UHGV virus genome: UHGV-0180966
DNA: 36,655 bases
Reading direction: 5' to 3' (one strand)
DNA from: a virus
The first letter of the stretch is position 1. Each line of letters begins with the position of its first letter. This document shows positions 3,001 through 9,000 of this stretch, piece by piece. A program made the position numbers.

Positions 3001-6000
3001 CAACCTGTCAACGCTTACCCAGCGCGGTCTGGCAAAGATGATTGGCTGTCATGAATCGAAGATAAGCAGAACGGACTGGAGATTTATTGCTTCGGTCTTG
3101 TGTGCTTTCGGAATGGCATCAGACATCAGTCCGATTAGCAGGGCTTTTAAGTATGCGCTTGATGAAATCACCAATAAAAAACGCCCGGTGTGCAAGACCG
3201 AGCGTTCTGAACAAATCCAGATGGATTTTTAACAACATCCAACGAGGTAATTATATGCGAAAAACGCAGGAAAATAAACGCGTTAATCACCGAAAAGATG
3301 TGCTACGTGACCAGTTTTATCAGGGGGTTAATCCAGCAATAGTTGTGCCACTGAGAGAAATACTTAACAGGTACAAAACTTCGGAGAAGTCAAAATGAGC
3401 ATGAATCTTATGGTTAAGGCCATGAATATAAAGGTTGGCAACCCACTGAGAAAACTGGTTCTGATTAAACTTGCCGATAACGCCAATGATAATGGCGAAT
3501 GCTGGCCTTCATATCAACATGTCGCTGACCAGTGTGAGGTGAGCAGATCGACAGTAAAAAGTCACATTAGGGCACTGGAAGAGATGGGGCTTTTGAAAAG
3601 GGAATTCAGAAGAAAAGGAGAGCTTAACCAGTCAAACGTTTTTTATCTGACGCTGGATAATGCACAACAAATCCAACCAGAATCAGGTGGGGCAGGAGCT
3701 GCCCTAGGGGGTGGGGCAGGAGCTGCCCCCAGAACCTATCACTCTTTTGAACCAGTCAATGAACCTAAAAACATTATGTTCGAACATGTCCGAACAGAGT
3801 GTGAAAAAACTCCTGACCGTCACGAAGAAACCGACAAGGCATTCGAGGAAATATTCTGGTGTGCAGGCATGCGGAAAGCCGGGAAGAAAAACGCAGCTTC
3901 AGCATTCAGAACACAGTTCAGGGAATGGCGTAAAACTACCAGGGGGACGGCAAGCGAGTTTGCCACGATGCTGGCAGAAGACATTGCGTGCAGGCTCGGT
4001 AAGCAGTTCGGGTTCGACAGGTTGTTACCATCGAGCTACCTGAACGGTCAACGCTGGAACGACGAGAAGCCAGAAACTATTCAACCACAATCCAAACCAT
4101 CATCCGCAATCACCGTATCGAAAACTGGCTACGTGTTTTTCGACAGGTGAACCATGAAATCAAAAATCAAATCGCTACTGGTCGCTGGTTATAACCACGG
4201 CTGGTTAAGTATTTCGTTTGTCGATTTCTGGTTTAAAAATCTCAATCTGAGGGAATCATGAGGCCAAGTGAACTCAGCGACCTGCTTTGGGCGCAGGTTG
4301 ACAGGGTGGCTCCGCACCTGTTGCCAAACGGCAAGAAAGATGGGCATGAGTGGGTTGCCGGTAACGTCAACGGTGACAAGGGAAACAGCCTTAAGGTCAA
4401 CCTTAGTGGCAAGAAAAAATGGGCTGATTTCGCTGAGGGAGACGGCGGCGACATGCTTGATTTGTGGATGGCATGTCGTGGAATTAACCTGCATCAGGCT
4501 ATGCAGGAAGCGAAAGCCTTTCTCGGAATCAAGGATGACGATCACCATTTCGATGCCAAACGTGAGAAAAAATTCTCCAGACCTGATCGCAAGAAAATCG
4601 CCCGCTACGTTACCAGAACAGAATCCCATCTTGAGTACCTGCAATCGCGTGGCATATCGCCAGAAGTCGTAAAGCGCTACGAGGTTGTCAGCGGCAAGGT
4701 GTGGAATGGAGAACGAGAACTTGATGCACTGGTGCTTCCGTACAAACGCGATGGTGAGTTGTTGCAGGTCAAGCGAATCAGCACTGAGCGCCCGGACGGG
4801 AAGAAAGTCATTATGGCAGAAGGTGATTGCGAACCTTGTCTGTTCGGATGGCAGGCTCTGGACGCTGGCGTGAGGGCGGTTGTACTTTGCGAAGGCGAAA
4901 TTGATTGTATGAGCTATGCGCAATACGGCATCTCGGCGTTATCCGTGCCGTTTGGTGGCGGGAAAGGTGCTAAGCAACAGTGGATTGAGTTTGAGTATCA
5001 CAACCTCGACAGGTTTGAGGAAATATTCATCTCGATGGACGTTGATGATGTTGGTCGTGAAGCCGCAAGGGAAATCGCAAGCCGACTCGGTGAACATCGT
5101 TGCCGTCTTGTTACTCTGCCGTACAAAGACATCAACGAATGCCTGATGAACGGTGTTACCGAGGATGAAATCTGGCAGTACATCGGCACGGCATCATACT
5201 TCGACCCTGAAGAACTCTACAGCGCACGAGAGTTTTACCAGGACACTATCAACGCTTTCTACGGCAAGCAGCAGTATCTGTTTAATCCACCGTGGGAATC
5301 TCTGGCAGATAAATTCCAGTTCCGTGAGGCCGAGTTGACGCTGGTCAATGGTGTGAACGGTCACGGAAAAGCCTGTCCACTTGATGAACCAATTCTGCTC
5401 GCTAATGGTGAATGGACTACTCACGGGGATGTAAAAATTGGCGATCAGGTGGCGTCAGTTGACGGCAATCCGTCAACTGTCACCGGGATATTCCCGCAGG
5501 GTGTTAGAGATGTTTACCGAGTCACATTTGAAGATGGTCGTTATGTTGATTGCGCAGGCGATCACCTATGGGAGGTCACTAGTCGTGGATTCACGAAAGG
5601 CGAGAAGCGCCGCGTGATAGACACCTTCGAGCTGAAACGGTTGAGTGAAACGAAGAGGCACAAAAATGGCGTTAGGATTCCTGAAATAACTGGTGACTTT
5701 GGCGACCACTCAGAGCCATTAGCATGGGTTATCGGCTCCCTTCTCGGGGATGGTAGTCTTAGCAATGGGAGCGTGAAGTTTTCAAACGTCGAGCCATACA
5801 TGATCGAGCGTATGAAGGCTGAACTGCCTGATTACAACTTCTCTGGAGATGGTAAGGACTGGCTGATATCAACGGCGCGTGGTCAGGTAAATCCACTCAT
5901 GGAGACCCTGCGAGGTTATGGACTAATGGGGTGCACAGCAAAAAACAAATTCATCCCTCGTGTGTTTTTTTCTGCAAATAAATCAACGCGTATAGGCATG

Positions 6001-9000
6001 CTGTGTGGTCTGCTTGAAACGGATGGGTATGTCGAGAAGGATGGAACGCTTGTTTTTTCCTCAGCAAGTGAAGAACTGCTCAATGGGGTTGTTCAACTGG
6101 TTAACTCACTCGGCGGGTCATGCCGGACGCGAGTTAAAACTGGCGTGACATACACATACAAGGGCGATAAGCGGCATGGGATGGATTCATACGAGGCAAG
6201 AATCAGACTGACAAGAGAAATCAGGGATGCCATCCGTTCACCACGACTCAATGGCAGATTAACTGCGCATCGATTCGAGGGCTGTGGGGTATTCGTCAGG
6301 AATGTTGAAAAAATAGGCAATGCAGAATGCTTGTGTATTATGGTCGATCACCCTCGCCACCTGTATGTAACCAGGGGATATGTGGCGACGCATAACACCG
6401 AGGTTGTCGGGCATATGGCACTTGAGGCAATGCGTCAGGGTGTGAAGACGTGCATCGCGTCACTTGAGCTGAAGCCAGGCATTCTCCTTAAGCGACTTAC
6501 CCGTCAGGCGACGTGCTGCAAGATGCCGCCAGTGCTGGAAATTGACTCTGCATTTAAATTTTATGACGAAAGACTTTGGGTGTTTGGCCTGACCGGAACG
6601 GCGAAAGCCGACAGGCTGATCGAAATATTCGACTACGCTCGCCGCCGATACGGCATCCAGTTATTCATCATCGACAGCCTGATGAAATGTGGCATAGGCG
6701 ACGATGACTATAACGGGCAGAAGGCGTTTGTTGACTCGATTTGCGATTTCAAAAACAAAACAAACTCCCACGTCATTCTCGTTACTCACTCGCGAAAAGG
6801 TGACAGCGAAGAAAAACCAACCGGGAAAATGGACGTAAAAGGCTCTGGAGCGATAACAGACCTGACAGACAACCTTTTCATCATCTGGCGTAACAAGGCT
6901 CGCGAGAGAGCGTTACAGAGAGTTCAGAGTGGTGAAAAGATGTCAGAGAAGGACGAACAGCTACTGGCATCTCCGGCATCTGTTTTGATGCTTGAAAAAC
7001 AACGTAACGGCGAAGGTTGGGAAGGTGGTGTCCCGTTGTTCCTTGACGAGCAATCGCACCAGTTCCTGCAACTTGAATCAGGATCGCCATATAGCTACAT
7101 CGCCAATATGCCGAAATCGGAATATGACGAGGCGTGGCGACAGGAAAACGTGACGGAGTATTAAATGACCATCTACATCACTGAGCTAATAACAGGCCTG
7201 CTGGTAATCGCAGCCATTTCGTTTGTATGTAACAAAAATCGATTTTAATGCGCCTAAATGATACTGTAGCGAGATAAACACACAGCAGGCATATAATCGG
7301 GTGTCTAGATGCAAAATCTCGTCAGAATGCGATTCAGGAGGTTTAAGGGTGAGGCAAATATACATGCTTCGCAACGAAGCAATCAGAAACAACGCCATAG
7401 ACGCAATACTCTCACTTCCGATCGACGACAAGTCACCTCACGAAGTCCACGTTAAAGAACCAAAGCGTAGCAATCCTCAAAACCGCCTTATGTGGGCGTT
7501 ATTGCAGGACGTATCACGCCAGGTGCCTTGGCATGGACAGAGACTTGCGCCGGAGGACTGGAAAGACCTGTTTACTGCCCTGTGGCTTAAGACCAAAAAG
7601 CTGGAGCAAAGAAGTGTGCCTGGTATCGACGGTGGCGTTGTCATGCTTGGTGTGCGTACCAGCAAAATGCGAAAGGCCAACATGACTGAGCTTATCGAAA
7701 TCATGTTCTGGTTCGGCTCAGAGCGCAACGTGCGGTGGAGTGATGACTCCCGGCGAGAGTATGAATGGTCACAACAAAAAGGGAGGGTTGAATGATTAAG
7801 CATAAATCAGAAACACCAAAAGAAGTTAGAGATTGCTGGCAAACGCCGCTTTGGCTTTTTGATGCGCTGGATATTGAGTTTGGATTCTGGCTGGATTCAG
7901 CTGCGAGCGACAAAAATGCTCTGTGTGCTCACTGGCTAACTGAGGCCGACGACGCGCTCAATTCTGAGTGGGTAAGCCACGGTGCAATCTGGAATAACCC
8001 ACCGTACAGCAATATCAGGCCGTGGGTGGAAAAAGCCGCTGAGCAGTGCATACAACAGCGACAGACGGTAGTTATGCTTGTGCCAGAGGATATGTCAGTC
8101 GGATGGTTCAGCAAGGCTCTGGAGAGTGTCGACGAAGTTCGCATTATCACTGATGGACGGATTAATTTTATCGAACCATCGACAGGGCTGGAGAAGAAGG
8201 GAAACAGCAAAGGCTCCATGCTGCTGATTTGGCGACCGTTCATCAGTCCTCGACGGATGTTTACTACCGTATCCAAAGCGGCATTGATGGCGATCGGGCA
8301 GGGCGTCAGGAGGGCGGCATGAGACGACAGCGACGAAGTATCACCGACATAATCTGCGAAAACTGCAAATACCTTCCAACGAAACGCTCCAGAAATAAAC
8401 GCAAGCCAATCCCAAAAGAATCTGACGTAAAAACCTTCAATTACACAGCTCACCTGTGGGATATCCGGTGGCTTAGAGAACGTGCGAGGAAAACAAGGTG
8501 ATTGACCCAAATCGAAGTTACGAACAAGAAAGCGTCGAGCGGGCTTTAACGTGCGCTAATTGCGGTCAGAAGCTGCATGTGCTGGAAGTTCACGTGTGCT
8601 CCGATTGCTGCGCAGAACTGATGAGCGATCCGAATAGCTCAATGTACGAGGAAGAAGACGATGAATGAGTTAATAAATGGCAATGCTATCAAAATGACCA
8701 CTAATTAGCCGTAAAGCCCCGGGGTTCGATGGCGGGCATGGTGTCAAGCAGCAGACGGCCTACCCGTCGATGAAAATTTCACCAAATGGCTTAATGGTTT
8801 TCACAGAATCCGGCTATTTGATGCTGGTTAAACCCCTGCGCGACGAGACGGCGAGAGAGGAGATGAAATCATGAACAGTTTAATAAGTGCCGCAGAAGTA
8901 AAAACAATGTCTAGCCGTGAGATTGCTGAACTGACAGGCAAACGGCATGACAATGTATTAAGAGATATTGATTTCATTCACTCAAATTTGAGTGAATCAA

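What the first reader, a model, noticed from the sequence alone, without database searches (positions are those of the whole stretch)
5374..6396. LAGLIDADG intein inserted in the Walker A P-loop of the phage primase-helicase
The 968-aa replication protein contains a ~341-aa insertion with Hint-domain N-terminal blocks (CPLDEPILLANGEW..., VYRVTFEDGRYVDCAGDHLW), two LAGLIDADG motifs (LLGDGSL and LLETDGYV) and a C-terminal ...VATHN followed by Thr. Removing it joins LVNGVNGHGK(A) to TEVVGHMALEAM, restoring a helicase P-loop. The N-terminal boundary is ambiguous by one residue: Cys1 at 5374 leaves the non-canonical GHGKAT, whereas Ala1 at 5371 gives a canonical GHGKT with the P-loop Thr as the +1 nucleophile.
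Basis: partly seen in the sequence, partly recalled or inferred. Interest (0 to 1): 0.65.

Follow-up and report, generated by a model that had tools for sequence, protein, structure and literature searches.

The report
Class 3 intein in phage helicase P-loop
The phage replication protein (primase-helicase) is interrupted, exactly between the Lys and Thr of its ATP-binding loop, by a 342-residue self-splicing intein with a homing endonuclease; it is real, but it belongs to a well-described class, and a 98%-identical copy has already been reported in Shiga-toxin phage 24B.

Summary
ORF 4258..7164 (968 aa) is a T7 gp4-like Toprim primase-helicase carrying an in-frame insertion. Seven sequenced intein-free alleles (87-99% identical) read ...VNGVNGHGK|TEVVGHM... 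and lack exactly 1026 nt. The intein is therefore 5371..6396 (342 aa), not 5374..6396. It begins with Ala, not Cys, and the Walker A Thr is the +1 residue.

The element carries the full class 3 intein signature: Ala1, His65 and Trp67 (block B), Cys322 (block F:4), Thr340-His341-Asn342 (block G), and Thr+1. Its best solved-structure matches are the class 3 DnaB inteins 6RIX and 6BS8. In the 140 closest family representatives, W, C, H and N are invariant and position 1 is Ala in 108.

Both LAGLIDADG motifs keep their catalytic Asp. The AlphaFold model (pLDDT 94) matches PI-SceI. The intein is present in 79 of 296 E. coli genomes that carry this gene.

Inferred mechanism: Cys322 attacks the Lys371-Ala372 bond, the acyl group passes to Thr714, Asn342 cyclises, and GHGKT is restored. 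Splicing itself was not tested.

This is already known: Smith et al. 2012 noted the intein in phage 24B, and class 3 inteins in helicase P-loops were described in 2010. Interest is low.

The parts
4258..7164 (+). Precursor ORF, 968 aa plus stop: Toprim primase-helicase (T7 gp4-like) interrupted by the intein
   Evidence: The intein-free orthologue aligns to T7 gp4 structures 5IKN/6N7I/1Q57 at E=2.7e-23.
4258..5370 (+). N-extein, residues 1-371. It contains the Toprim domain (4882..5145) and ends with the first part of Walker A, GVNGHGK (5350..5370).
   Evidence: Pfam Toprim_2 E=8e-12. Alignment to intein-free alleles. Walker A aligns to T7 gp4 GSGMGKS.
5371..6396 (+). Intein, 342 aa, Ala1 to Asn342 (precursor residues 372-713)
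   Evidence: Exact 1026-nt presence/absence polymorphism. Matches to class 3 intein structures. AF2 model pLDDT 94.1 with PI-SceI-like fold.
5371..5409 (+). Splicing block A, ACPLDEPILLANG. Ala1 is the first intein residue. Cys2 is an unusual substitution (0 of 140 relatives).
   Evidence: In-register alignment with Msm DnaBi1 ALALDTPLPTPSG. Position 1 is Ala in 108/140 relatives; position 2 is Gln or Leu in 135/140.
5536..5577 (+). Splicing block B, GRYVDCAGDHLWEV: Ala62 at B:7 (no Thr), His65 at B:10, Trp67 at B:12 (the W of the WCT triplet)
   Evidence: His and Trp are invariant in 140/140 relatives. They align to His65/Trp67 of class 3 DnaB inteins.
5719..5757 (+). First LAGLIDADG motif, LAWVIGSLLGDGS, with catalytic Asp127
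   Evidence: Asp in 116/140 relatives. Coordinates. Fold match to PI-SceI and I-DmoI.
5992..6030 (+). Second LAGLIDADG motif, IGMLCGLLETDGY, with catalytic Asp218
   Evidence: Pfam LAGLIDADG_3 over intein residues 208-261, 37.2 bits vs cut-off 22.5. Asp in 139/140 relatives.
6325..6372 (+). Splicing block F, ECLCIMVDHPRHLYVT. Cys322 at F:4 is the predicted initiating nucleophile (the C of WCT).
   Evidence: Aligns to catalytic Cys118 of Msm DnaBi1 and its Mch DnaB1 equivalent. Cys in 140/140 relatives.
6376..6396 (+). Splicing block G, GYVATHN: Thr340 (G:5, the T of WCT), His341, Asn342 (cyclising residue)
   Evidence: T 138/140, H 139/140, N 140/140. Alignment.
6397..7164 (+). C-extein, 255 aa plus stop. 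It starts with Thr714 (codon ACC, 6397..6399), which is both the +1 splicing nucleophile and the Walker A Thr.
   Evidence: The +1 residue is Thr in 130 and Ser in 9 of 140 relatives.

Best explanation
Window 5371..6396 encodes a 342-residue class 3 intein with an embedded double-motif LAGLIDADG homing endonuclease. It is inserted between Lys371 and Thr714 of the Walker A loop (GVNGHGK|T) of a lambdoid or P22-like phage Toprim primase-helicase related to T7 gp4.

Shown here:
- The insertion is precise, in frame, and absent from near-identical alleles.
- It carries every sequence signature of class 3 inteins.
- Its predicted fold is a HINT domain plus a LAGLIDADG domain.

Inferred from the established class 3 mechanism (Tori et al. 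2010; Kelley et al. 2018):
1. After translation, Cys322 (block F:4) attacks the Lys371-Ala372 peptide bond and forms a block F branched thioester.
2. The N-extein is passed to the hydroxyl of Thr714 (+1).
3. Asn342 cyclises and releases the intein.
4. An O-to-N acyl shift makes the Lys-Thr bond. This yields a 626-aa protein with an intact GHGKT P-loop.

Until splicing occurs, the ATPase site is split, so the helicase should be inactive. The endonuclease domain is inferred to cut the conserved intein-less site (GGTCACGGAAAA|ACGGAGGTTGTC). Repair from an intein-bearing phage or prophage would then copy the intein in. That would explain its patchy distribution among otherwise near-identical replication genes in different phage backbones.
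For: Boundary and insertion:
- 79 of 296 E. coli genomes and 9 phage records carry the long allele. The listed shorter matches are two-piece alignments spanning a 1881-nt gene.
- Seven short alleles read GHGK|TEVV, and the site is invariant even in Salmonella phage epsilon34, which is 87% identical overall.
- The short allele aligns to T7 gp4 with GHGKT over GMGKS. It also regains a contiguous AAA_25 domain above the Pfam cut-off.

Class 3 signature:
- The best PDB sequence matches are class 3 inteins: Mch DnaB1 (6RIX/6RIY, E=4.7e-10) and Msm DnaBi1 (6BS8). Block A is in register from residue 1, and H-x-W, block F Cys and THN all align.
- In 140 full-coverage relatives: His65 140, Trp67 140, Cys322 140, Thr340 138, His341 139, Asn342 140. 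The +1 residue is Thr 130 / Ser 9. Position 1 is Ala in 108 and Ser or Cys in only 5. The preceding residues are G-K in about 130.
- These features match the class definition in PMC2807308, PMC3196547 and PMC6195587.
- Related Ala1 inteins sit at the same GK|T position in a DnaB helicase of other Stx2a phages (49.6% identity) and in a PhoH ATPase (P0004).

Fold: AF2 pLDDT 94.1, pTM 0.92. Foldseek top hits are PI-SceI (TM 0.72-0.76) and other endonuclease-bearing inteins. The HINT part matches the class 3 DnaB inteins (target TM 0.75).

Functional constraint:
- The ORF is intact and both LAGLIDADG Asp residues are present.
- Between the window and the 24B allele there are 16 nucleotide differences in synonymous codons and 8 in non-synonymous codons within the intein.
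- Intein-bearing alleles occur in phages deposited as complete genomes (24B, Min27, phiKp_30).
Against: No experiment shows splicing or endonuclease activity for this intein. The only paper found on it says its function had not been determined experimentally (PMC3430580). Pfam's Hint model (Hom_end_hint) scores below its cut-off (25.2 vs 32.1 bits). Class assignment rests on sequence signatures and homology, not on a formal phylogeny. Block B:7 is Ala62, whereas Msm DnaBi1 has an Asp there that was proposed to help catalysis; the position is variable in relatives. Cys at position 2 is not seen in any of 140 relatives and its effect is unknown. The patchy distribution could also arise from ordinary recombination of replication modules rather than from active homing.
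Confidence: 0.88

Rival explanations
1. It is a standard class 1 intein that starts at Cys (5374..6396), as in the first reader's coordinates. An N-S acyl shift at that Cys starts splicing, and Ala372 stays in the mature protein (GHGKAT).
For: A Cys lies one residue after the Walker A Lys. It is kept in all five intein-bearing alleles examined, with both TGT and TGC codons.
Against: All seven intein-free alleles read GHGK|T with no Ala, and the indel is 342 codons, not 341. GHGKAT would break the GK[ST] Walker A that aligns to T7 gp4. Block A aligns without a gap to class 3 inteins when Ala is residue 1. Relatives have Gln or Leu at position 2 and never Cys. Block B lacks the class 1 Thr at B:7, and block F:4 is Cys rather than Asp.
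Confidence: 0.03
2. It is a class 2 (KlbA-like) Ala1 intein. The +1 residue attacks the N-terminal splice junction directly, with no block F branched intermediate.
For: Ala occupies position 1, and the +1 residue is a nucleophile.
Against: Class 2 inteins are defined as lacking the WCT triplet and are reported only in archaeal KlbA. Here W, C and T are all present and invariant in relatives. The nearest characterised homologues are class 3 inteins in which the block F Cys is essential.
Confidence: 0.04
3. It is a splicing-dead or very inefficient relic. The interrupted gene is non-functional, and replication relies on host or co-resident phage functions.
For: No splicing data exist. Decayed copies do occur: partial Shigella prophage primase inteins are reported in PMC2807308, and fragment P0001, truncated P0005 and degenerate P0003 were found here. 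Prophages can tolerate dead genes.
Against: The ORF is intact in all five intein-bearing alleles examined. Every catalytic residue is conserved, and synonymous differences outnumber non-synonymous ones. The allele is found in several complete phage genome records from different backbones. In these lambdoid modules the gene occupies the replication-gene slot next to the O-like gene.
Confidence: 0.05

Closest known systems
Intein in replication protein P of Stx2 phage vB_EcoP_24B (Smith et al. 2012, PMC3430580), and the same allele in phage Min27 and O157:H7 prophages
   Same: Same gene, same insertion point (their start residue is also 372), same length of 342 aa, and 98.0% amino-acid identity over the intein.
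   Different: The window allele sits in a P22-like (Lederbergvirus-type) genome, not a Stx phage. It differs at 7 intein residues and has a patch of 14 nucleotide differences in the first 42 nt of the intein. The 2012 paper gave the end as residue 702 and did not assign a splicing class.
Class 3 inteins: mycobacteriophage Bethlehem DnaB intein (prototype), M. smegmatis DnaBi1 (PDB 6BS8) and M. chimaera DnaB1 (PDB 6RIX)
   Same: Non-nucleophilic residue 1 (Ala), WCT triplet, His at B:10, C-terminal His-Asn and Ser/Thr at +1. Insertion falls after the GK of a helicase P-loop (DnaB site b), so the P-loop hydroxyl residue doubles as the splicing nucleophile.
   Different: The host protein is a gp4-like primase-helicase rather than DnaB. 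The two solved examples are mini-inteins without an endonuclease, whereas this one keeps a full LAGLIDADG domain. B:7 is Ala rather than Asp. Cys at position 2 is unusual.
Paralogous intein in the DnaB-type helicase of other Stx2a phages (e.g. Stx2a F578, LC487997)
   Same: 49.6% identical, Ala1...HLW..., ECLCIMV, VTHN|T, both LAGLIDADG motifs, and inserted at GMGK|T.
   Different: It sits in a different helicase family (DnaB N- and C-terminal domains). Position 2 is Met. Nucleotide similarity is limited to one short stretch.
PI-SceI (yeast VMA1 intein) and other endonuclease-bearing class 1 inteins (PI-PfuI, TliVMA)
   Same: Two-domain architecture: a HINT splicing domain with a double-motif LAGLIDADG endonuclease inserted between blocks B and F. 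Best whole-model structural matches, TM 0.72-0.76.
   Different: Those are class 1 inteins (Cys1 nucleophile) at only 14-18% identity, in a different host protein.
Class 2 KlbA inteins (Methanococcus jannaschii KlbA)
   Same: Ala at position 1.
   Different: They have no WCT triplet, are archaeal, have Cys at +1 and use direct attack. This element does not fit that definition.

Membership tests
Intein (HINT-domain protein-splicing element) | In-frame insertion that is absent from orthologues; its precise removal restores a conserved host motif | tested here: met
   A 1026-nt indel separates the alleles. Seven intein-free alleles read GHGK|TEVV, and removal restores a Walker A aligned to T7 gp4 GMGKS.
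Intein (HINT-domain protein-splicing element) | Splicing blocks A, B, F and G with His at B:10, C-terminal His-Asn, and Ser/Thr/Cys at +1 | tested here: met
   His65, His341, Asn342 and Thr+1 are present. They are invariant or nearly so in 140 relatives.
Intein (HINT-domain protein-splicing element) | HINT fold | tested here: met
   This is a predicted model, not a solved structure: pLDDT 94.1. Foldseek matches intein structures, including 6RIX/6RIY and 6BS8. Pfam Hom_end_hint alone is below its cut-off.
Intein (HINT-domain protein-splicing element) | Autocatalytic excision with ligation of the exteins | not testable with these tools
   This needs expression plus western blot or mass spectrometry. 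No published test was found.
Class 3 inteins | No Cys/Ser/Thr nucleophile at intein position 1 | tested here: met
   Ala1, fixed by the empty-site alleles. Position 1 is Ala in 108/140 relatives.
Class 3 inteins | WCT triplet: Trp at B:12, Cys at F:4, Thr at G:5 | tested here: met
   Trp67, Cys322 and Thr340 align to Trp67/Cys118/Thr137 of Msm DnaBi1. Counts in relatives are 140, 140 and 138 of 140.
Class 3 inteins | Ser or Thr at +1 (rarely Cys) | tested here: met
   Thr714.
Class 3 inteins | Belongs to the monophyletic class 3 clade | tested here: inconclusive
   No tree was built. The nearest solved structures are class 3, and all 140 nearest representatives carry W and C, which is consistent with membership.
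Class 3 inteins | Obligate block F Cys nucleophile and a block F branched intermediate | not testable with these tools
   This needs Cys322 mutants and trapping of the intermediate.
Class 1 inteins | Cys/Ser/Thr at position 1, with Thr at B:7 and usually Asp at F:4 | tested here: not met
   Position 1 is Ala, B:7 is Ala62 and F:4 is Cys322.
Class 2 (KlbA-type) inteins | Non-nucleophilic residue 1 without the WCT triplet | tested here: not met
   The WCT triplet is present. Definition taken.
LAGLIDADG homing endonuclease (double-motif, intein-borne) | Two LAGLIDADG motifs, each with its acidic catalytic residue, in an alpha-beta-beta-alpha-beta-beta-alpha pseudo-dimer fold | tested here: met
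   LLGDG (Asp127) and LLETDG (Asp218). Pfam LAGLIDADG_3 scores 37.2 bits vs a cut-off of 22.5. Fold matches to PI-SceI and I-DmoI.
LAGLIDADG homing endonuclease (double-motif, intein-borne) | Site-specific cleavage of the intein-less allele, and homing | not testable with these tools
   Only indirect support exists: presence/absence polymorphism (79 of 296 genomes), occurrence in both Sepvirinae and Lederbergvirus backbones, and an invariant empty site.
T7 gp4-like (SF4) primase-helicase (host protein) | Toprim primase domain fused to a RecA-type hexameric helicase domain with Walker A | tested here: met
   Toprim_2 E=3e-12, AAA_25 above its cut-off and DnaB_C E=3e-5 in the intein-free allele. 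T7 gp4 structures match at E=2.7e-23 over residues 192-539.

The most novel reading that the evidence does not exclude
The Cys directly after Ala1 is absent from all 140 nearest relatives, yet it is kept with both codons in the alleles examined. It may not be a neutral core substitution. It could give this intein a redox-sensitive switch through a disulfide with the catalytic Cys322, in the way Cys48-Cys118 works in M. smegmatis DnaBi1. Alternatively it could act as a back-up class 1-like nucleophile. Either would make maturation of the Stx-phage and P22-like replication helicase, and hence phage replication after induction, conditional on oxidative state.
Probability: 0.06. Interest if true: 0.6.

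Novelty: already known. Interest (0 to 1): 0.2.

Why it matters
As found, this is a textbook-type mobile element. It has three practical uses.

- **Annotation.** It corrects the boundary to 5371, with Ala1. RefSeq calls these genes only 'toprim domain-containing protein' and does not flag the intein. Anyone modelling or expressing this helicase needs the 626-aa spliced sequence.
- **Biology.** The phage's replicative helicase is inactive until the intein splices. Splicing rate or its conditionality could therefore gate replication of clinically relevant Stx2a phages that carry the same intein. This was proposed in 2012, and the searches here found no later test of it.
- **Experimental resource.** It is an endonuclease-bearing class 3 intein from an E. 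coli phage, which could be useful for mechanistic or protein-engineering work.

None of this would surprise an intein specialist.

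Tried and rejected
- **Class 1 reading with Cys1 at 5374.** Rejected on the empty-site alleles and the block A register.
- **Word-indexed protein search with the intein.** It returned only 5 hits and missed the family. The exhaustive representative search gave 16,961 hits, and I used that instead.
- **Fetching the prototype Bethlehem DnaB intein.** I tried AY500153 positions 30000-52250. tblastn found no intein there, and the annotated DnaB-like gene is only 822 nt. 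I relied on the solved class 3 DnaB inteins instead.
- **Unavailable literature.** Tori & Perler 2011 (PMC3133030) is not held. The supplementary tables of Tori 2010 are not held. I therefore could not confirm from the papers that this particular intein is listed as class 3. My recollection that InBase lists an 'EP-Min27 Primase' intein is memory only.
- **Model coordinates.** They are not exposed to scripts. I could not measure the distance from Cys322 to the scissile bond, or from Cys2 to Cys322.
- **Gene conversion between the primase intein and the DnaB-intein paralogue.** Only a 53-65-nt stretch is similar, at 83%. This is suggestive but not established.
- **Opposite-strand ORFs inside the intein** (5562..5801 and 6093..6320, minus strand). 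They are mechanical ORFs with no support.
- **RNA genes.** There are no tRNA genes in the window and no Rfam family in the region.

Full report
**1. Observation**

ORF 4258..7164 (+) encodes 968 aa.

Pfam finds a Toprim_2 domain at residues 209-296. It finds only a C-terminal fragment of an AAA_25 ATPase domain. Between them lies a LAGLIDADG_3 match above the curated cut-off (37.2 bits vs 22.5). There is also a sub-threshold Hom_end_hint match at the start of the insert. NCBIfam gives weak matches only, all to intein-containing families such as DnaB PRK07773, the RecA intein and the GyrA intein.

**2. Boundaries, fixed by natural intein-free alleles**

Megablast against 5,426 complete E. coli genomes finds the gene in 296 of them. 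In 79 the match covers the whole 2907 nt at about 98% identity. These are mostly O157:H7 Stx2a prophages. The other listed matches are two-piece alignments covering 65% of the query and spanning 1881 nt in the record.

The phage collection shows the same split.
- Long allele: Klebsiella phage phiKp_30 (99.2%), and Stx2 phages 24B, Min27, F403, F451 and Xuzhou21.
- Short allele: mEp043, Sf101, APC_JM3.2, and the Salmonella phages epsilon34, ES18, g341c and SEN22.

The difference, 2907 - 1881 = 1026 nt, is 342 codons, not 341.

Protein and DNA alignments show the short alleles reading ...LTLVNGVNGHGK|TEVVGHMALEAM... (GGA AAA|ACG GAG). The same holds in seven independent short alleles, including epsilon34 at 87% overall identity. 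So the insert is Ala372-Asn713, window 5371..6396. The Cys at 5374 is intein residue 2.

The short protein aligns to T7 gp4 primase-helicase structures (5IKN, 6N7I, 1Q57; E=2.7e-23). In that alignment GHGKT lies over the gp4 Walker A GMGKS. The short protein also regains a contiguous AAA_25 domain above threshold. The insertion therefore splits the P-loop between Lys and Thr.

**3. What kind of intein**

A sequence search of all PDB chains puts three class 3 inteins on top: M. chimaera DnaB1 (6RIX, 6RIY; E=4.7e-10) and M. smegmatis DnaBi1 (6BS8). The alignments show:
- ACPLDEPILLANG pairs without a gap with ALALDTPLPTPSG from residue 1.
- GDHLW pairs with AQHQW.
- CLCIMVDHPRHLYVT.RGYVATHN pairs with VRCVEVDNPEHLYLAGPGMVPTHN.

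Trp67, Cys322 and Thr340 therefore fall on the Trp67/Cys118/Thr137 'WCT triplet' of DnaBi1.

Class 3 inteins are defined by four features (PMC2807308; PMC3196547):
- a non-nucleophilic first residue;
- the triplet Trp at B:12, Cys at F:4 and Thr at G:5;
- Ser or Thr at +1;
- insertion mostly in P-loops of helicase-type ATPases.

All sequence criteria are met here.

An exhaustive HMMER search of 1.84 billion cluster representatives finds 16,961 relatives at E<=1e-3 and 3,034 at E<=1e-30. Most of the best 150 are proteins of about 800 aa with the intein at roughly residues 210-550. In the 140 best matches that cover both ends:

| Position | Count in 140 relatives |
|---|---|
| His65 | 140 |
| Trp67 | 140 |
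| Cys322 | 140 |
| Thr340 | 138 |
| His341 | 139 |
| Asn342 | 140 |
| +1 residue | Thr 130, Ser 9 |
| Position 1 | Ala 108; Ser or Cys only 5 |
| Residues -2, -1 | Gly-Lys in about 130 |
| Position 2 | Gln 108, Leu 27, Cys 0 |

Close relatives with complete junctions illustrate the pattern:
- A 49.6%-identical intein in the DnaB-type helicase of other Stx2a phages: ARPGMGK|AMAL...NHLW...ECLCIMV...VTHN|TELA.
- One in a PhoH ATPase: GPAGTGK|AQPL...DHLW...CQCILI...VTHN|TMLA (P0004).

tblastn finds related inteins in 633 phage records, 286 of them mycobacteriophages.

**4. Fold and endonuclease**

I ran AlphaFold2 on a 40-sequence alignment of the intein plus five extein residues on each side. It gives pLDDT 94.1 and pTM 0.92.

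Foldseek against the PDB ranks PI-SceI first (E=6e-18, query TM up to 0.76). It is followed by TliVMA, PhoVMA, PI-PfuI and PI-PkoII. The HINT part matches 6RIY, 6RIX and 6BS8 (target TM about 0.75). The middle part matches I-DmoI and I-Tsp061I.

Both LAGLIDADG motifs keep the acidic residue: LLGDG with Asp127 and LLETDG with Asp218. Those positions are Asp in 116 and 139 of 140 relatives.

**5. Signs of function and mobility**

The ORF is intact in the five intein-bearing alleles examined. The window allele and the 24B allele differ by 24 nucleotides within the intein. Of these, 16 lie in codons that stay synonymous and 8 in codons that change, giving 7 amino-acid changes, none at a catalytic position.

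The intein occurs in two unrelated phage backbones:
- Sepvirinae Stx phages;
- P22-like Lederbergvirus (phiKp_30). The window itself is also P22-like: its best overall match is phiKp_30, with P22-type portal, coat and ejection genes, and it carries a sar RNA.

Short alleles of >98% identity sit in the same kinds of phage (mEp043, Sf101). The Thr+1 codon is ACC in 5/5 intein-bearing alleles and ACG in 7/7 intein-free alleles. This silent marker travels with the intein, as expected for co-conversion, though shared ancestry would give the same pattern. GC content of the intein (49.1%) is close to that of the exteins (51.4% and 49.9%).

None of this proves present-day endonuclease activity.

**6. 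Mechanism (inferred)**

By homology to the Bethlehem DnaB, Dra Snf2 and Msm DnaBi1 inteins, the steps are:
1. Cys322 attacks the Lys371-Ala372 amide and forms a block F branched thioester.
2. Transesterification passes the N-extein to Thr714.
3. Asn342 cyclises.
4. An O-N shift yields Lys371-Thr714 and restores GVNGHGKT.

Because Walker A is split, the precursor should lack ATPase and helicase activity until it splices. That step is an inference; PMC6195587 argues it for P-loop inteins.

**7. Rivals**

- **Class 1 intein starting at Cys2.** The empty-site alleles and the block register exclude this.
- **Class 2 (KlbA-like).** The WCT triplet excludes this.
- **Dead relic.** Conservation and the intein's presence in complete phage genome records make this unlikely. 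It is not excluded without an experiment. Decayed relatives do exist: the partial Shigella prophage primase inteins mentioned in PMC2807308, and P0001, P0003 and P0005.

**8. Comparison with what is known**

Smith et al. [quoted passage not shown] They stated that its function had not been tested. That allele is 98% identical to this one.

Tori et al. 2010 listed Shigella flexneri prophage primase inteins among those lacking an N-terminal nucleophile. Further searches of the paper library turned up nothing else on this intein.

The element is therefore already known in kind and, in effect, in instance. This analysis adds three things: the exact boundaries, the explicit class 3 assignment for this allele, and the observation that Cys2 is atypical.

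**9. Verdict**

It is already known, and interest is low (0.2).

Noticed in passing
window 5374..5376 (intein residue 2): Cys directly follows Ala1. None of the 140 nearest family representatives has Cys here (Gln 108, Leu 27). All five intein-bearing alleles examined keep it, with both TGT and TGC codons. Its significance is unknown.
   Followed up: partly
window 5370..5411: There are 14 nucleotide differences, mostly silent, packed into the first 42 nt of the intein between the window/phiKp_30 allele and the 24B/O157 allele. The rest of the intein differs at about 1%. The 24B version (ILLADGTW) is closer to the DnaB-intein paralogue of other Stx2a phages, which hints at a small gene-conversion patch between paralogous inteins.
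   Followed up: partly
window 6399: The silent third base of the Thr+1 codon is C in 5/5 intein-bearing alleles and G in 7/7 intein-free alleles. This could be a co-conversion marker or a change in the endonuclease target.
   Followed up: partly
L004 1501..2517 (Stx2a phage F578, LC487997): A second, 49.6%-identical class 3 intein sits at the equivalent GK|T position of a DnaB-type helicase, in about 50 other Stx2a phage records. Two different replicative helicase types in Stx phages therefore each carry a related P-loop intein.
   Followed up: partly
P0003 (ENA metagenome protein, 357 aa): This relative is 35% identical and has no exteins. It starts inside block A. It has Gln for the block B His and Arg for the block F Cys, and it ends ...VVTHC. 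It looks like a free-standing or decayed intein derivative that keeps both LAGLIDADG motifs.
   Followed up: no
P0005 (416 aa): This is a DnaB N-terminal half with the first ~70 residues of a related intein. It then switches abruptly to a phage Mu F-like domain (PF04233). It is either a rearranged, decayed intein locus or an assembly chimera.
   Followed up: no
window 32757..32823 (-): An Rfam sar RNA (the antisense RNA of the P22 immI region) scores 62 bits vs a gathering score of 43. Together with the portal, coat and ejection-protein matches, it marks the window as a P22-like phage or prophage with a lambdoid replication module. No tRNA genes are present.
   Followed up: no
public records of the same gene (RefSeq E. 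coli; Min27 EU311208; HH97 NZ_CP116409): RefSeq names the 968-aa precursor only 'toprim domain-containing protein' and does not flag an intein. In Min27 the gene is annotated as two features (P and ORF31), and there the match spans 2909 rather than 2907 bases. One intein-free allele (HH97) is annotated as frameshifted.
   Followed up: no
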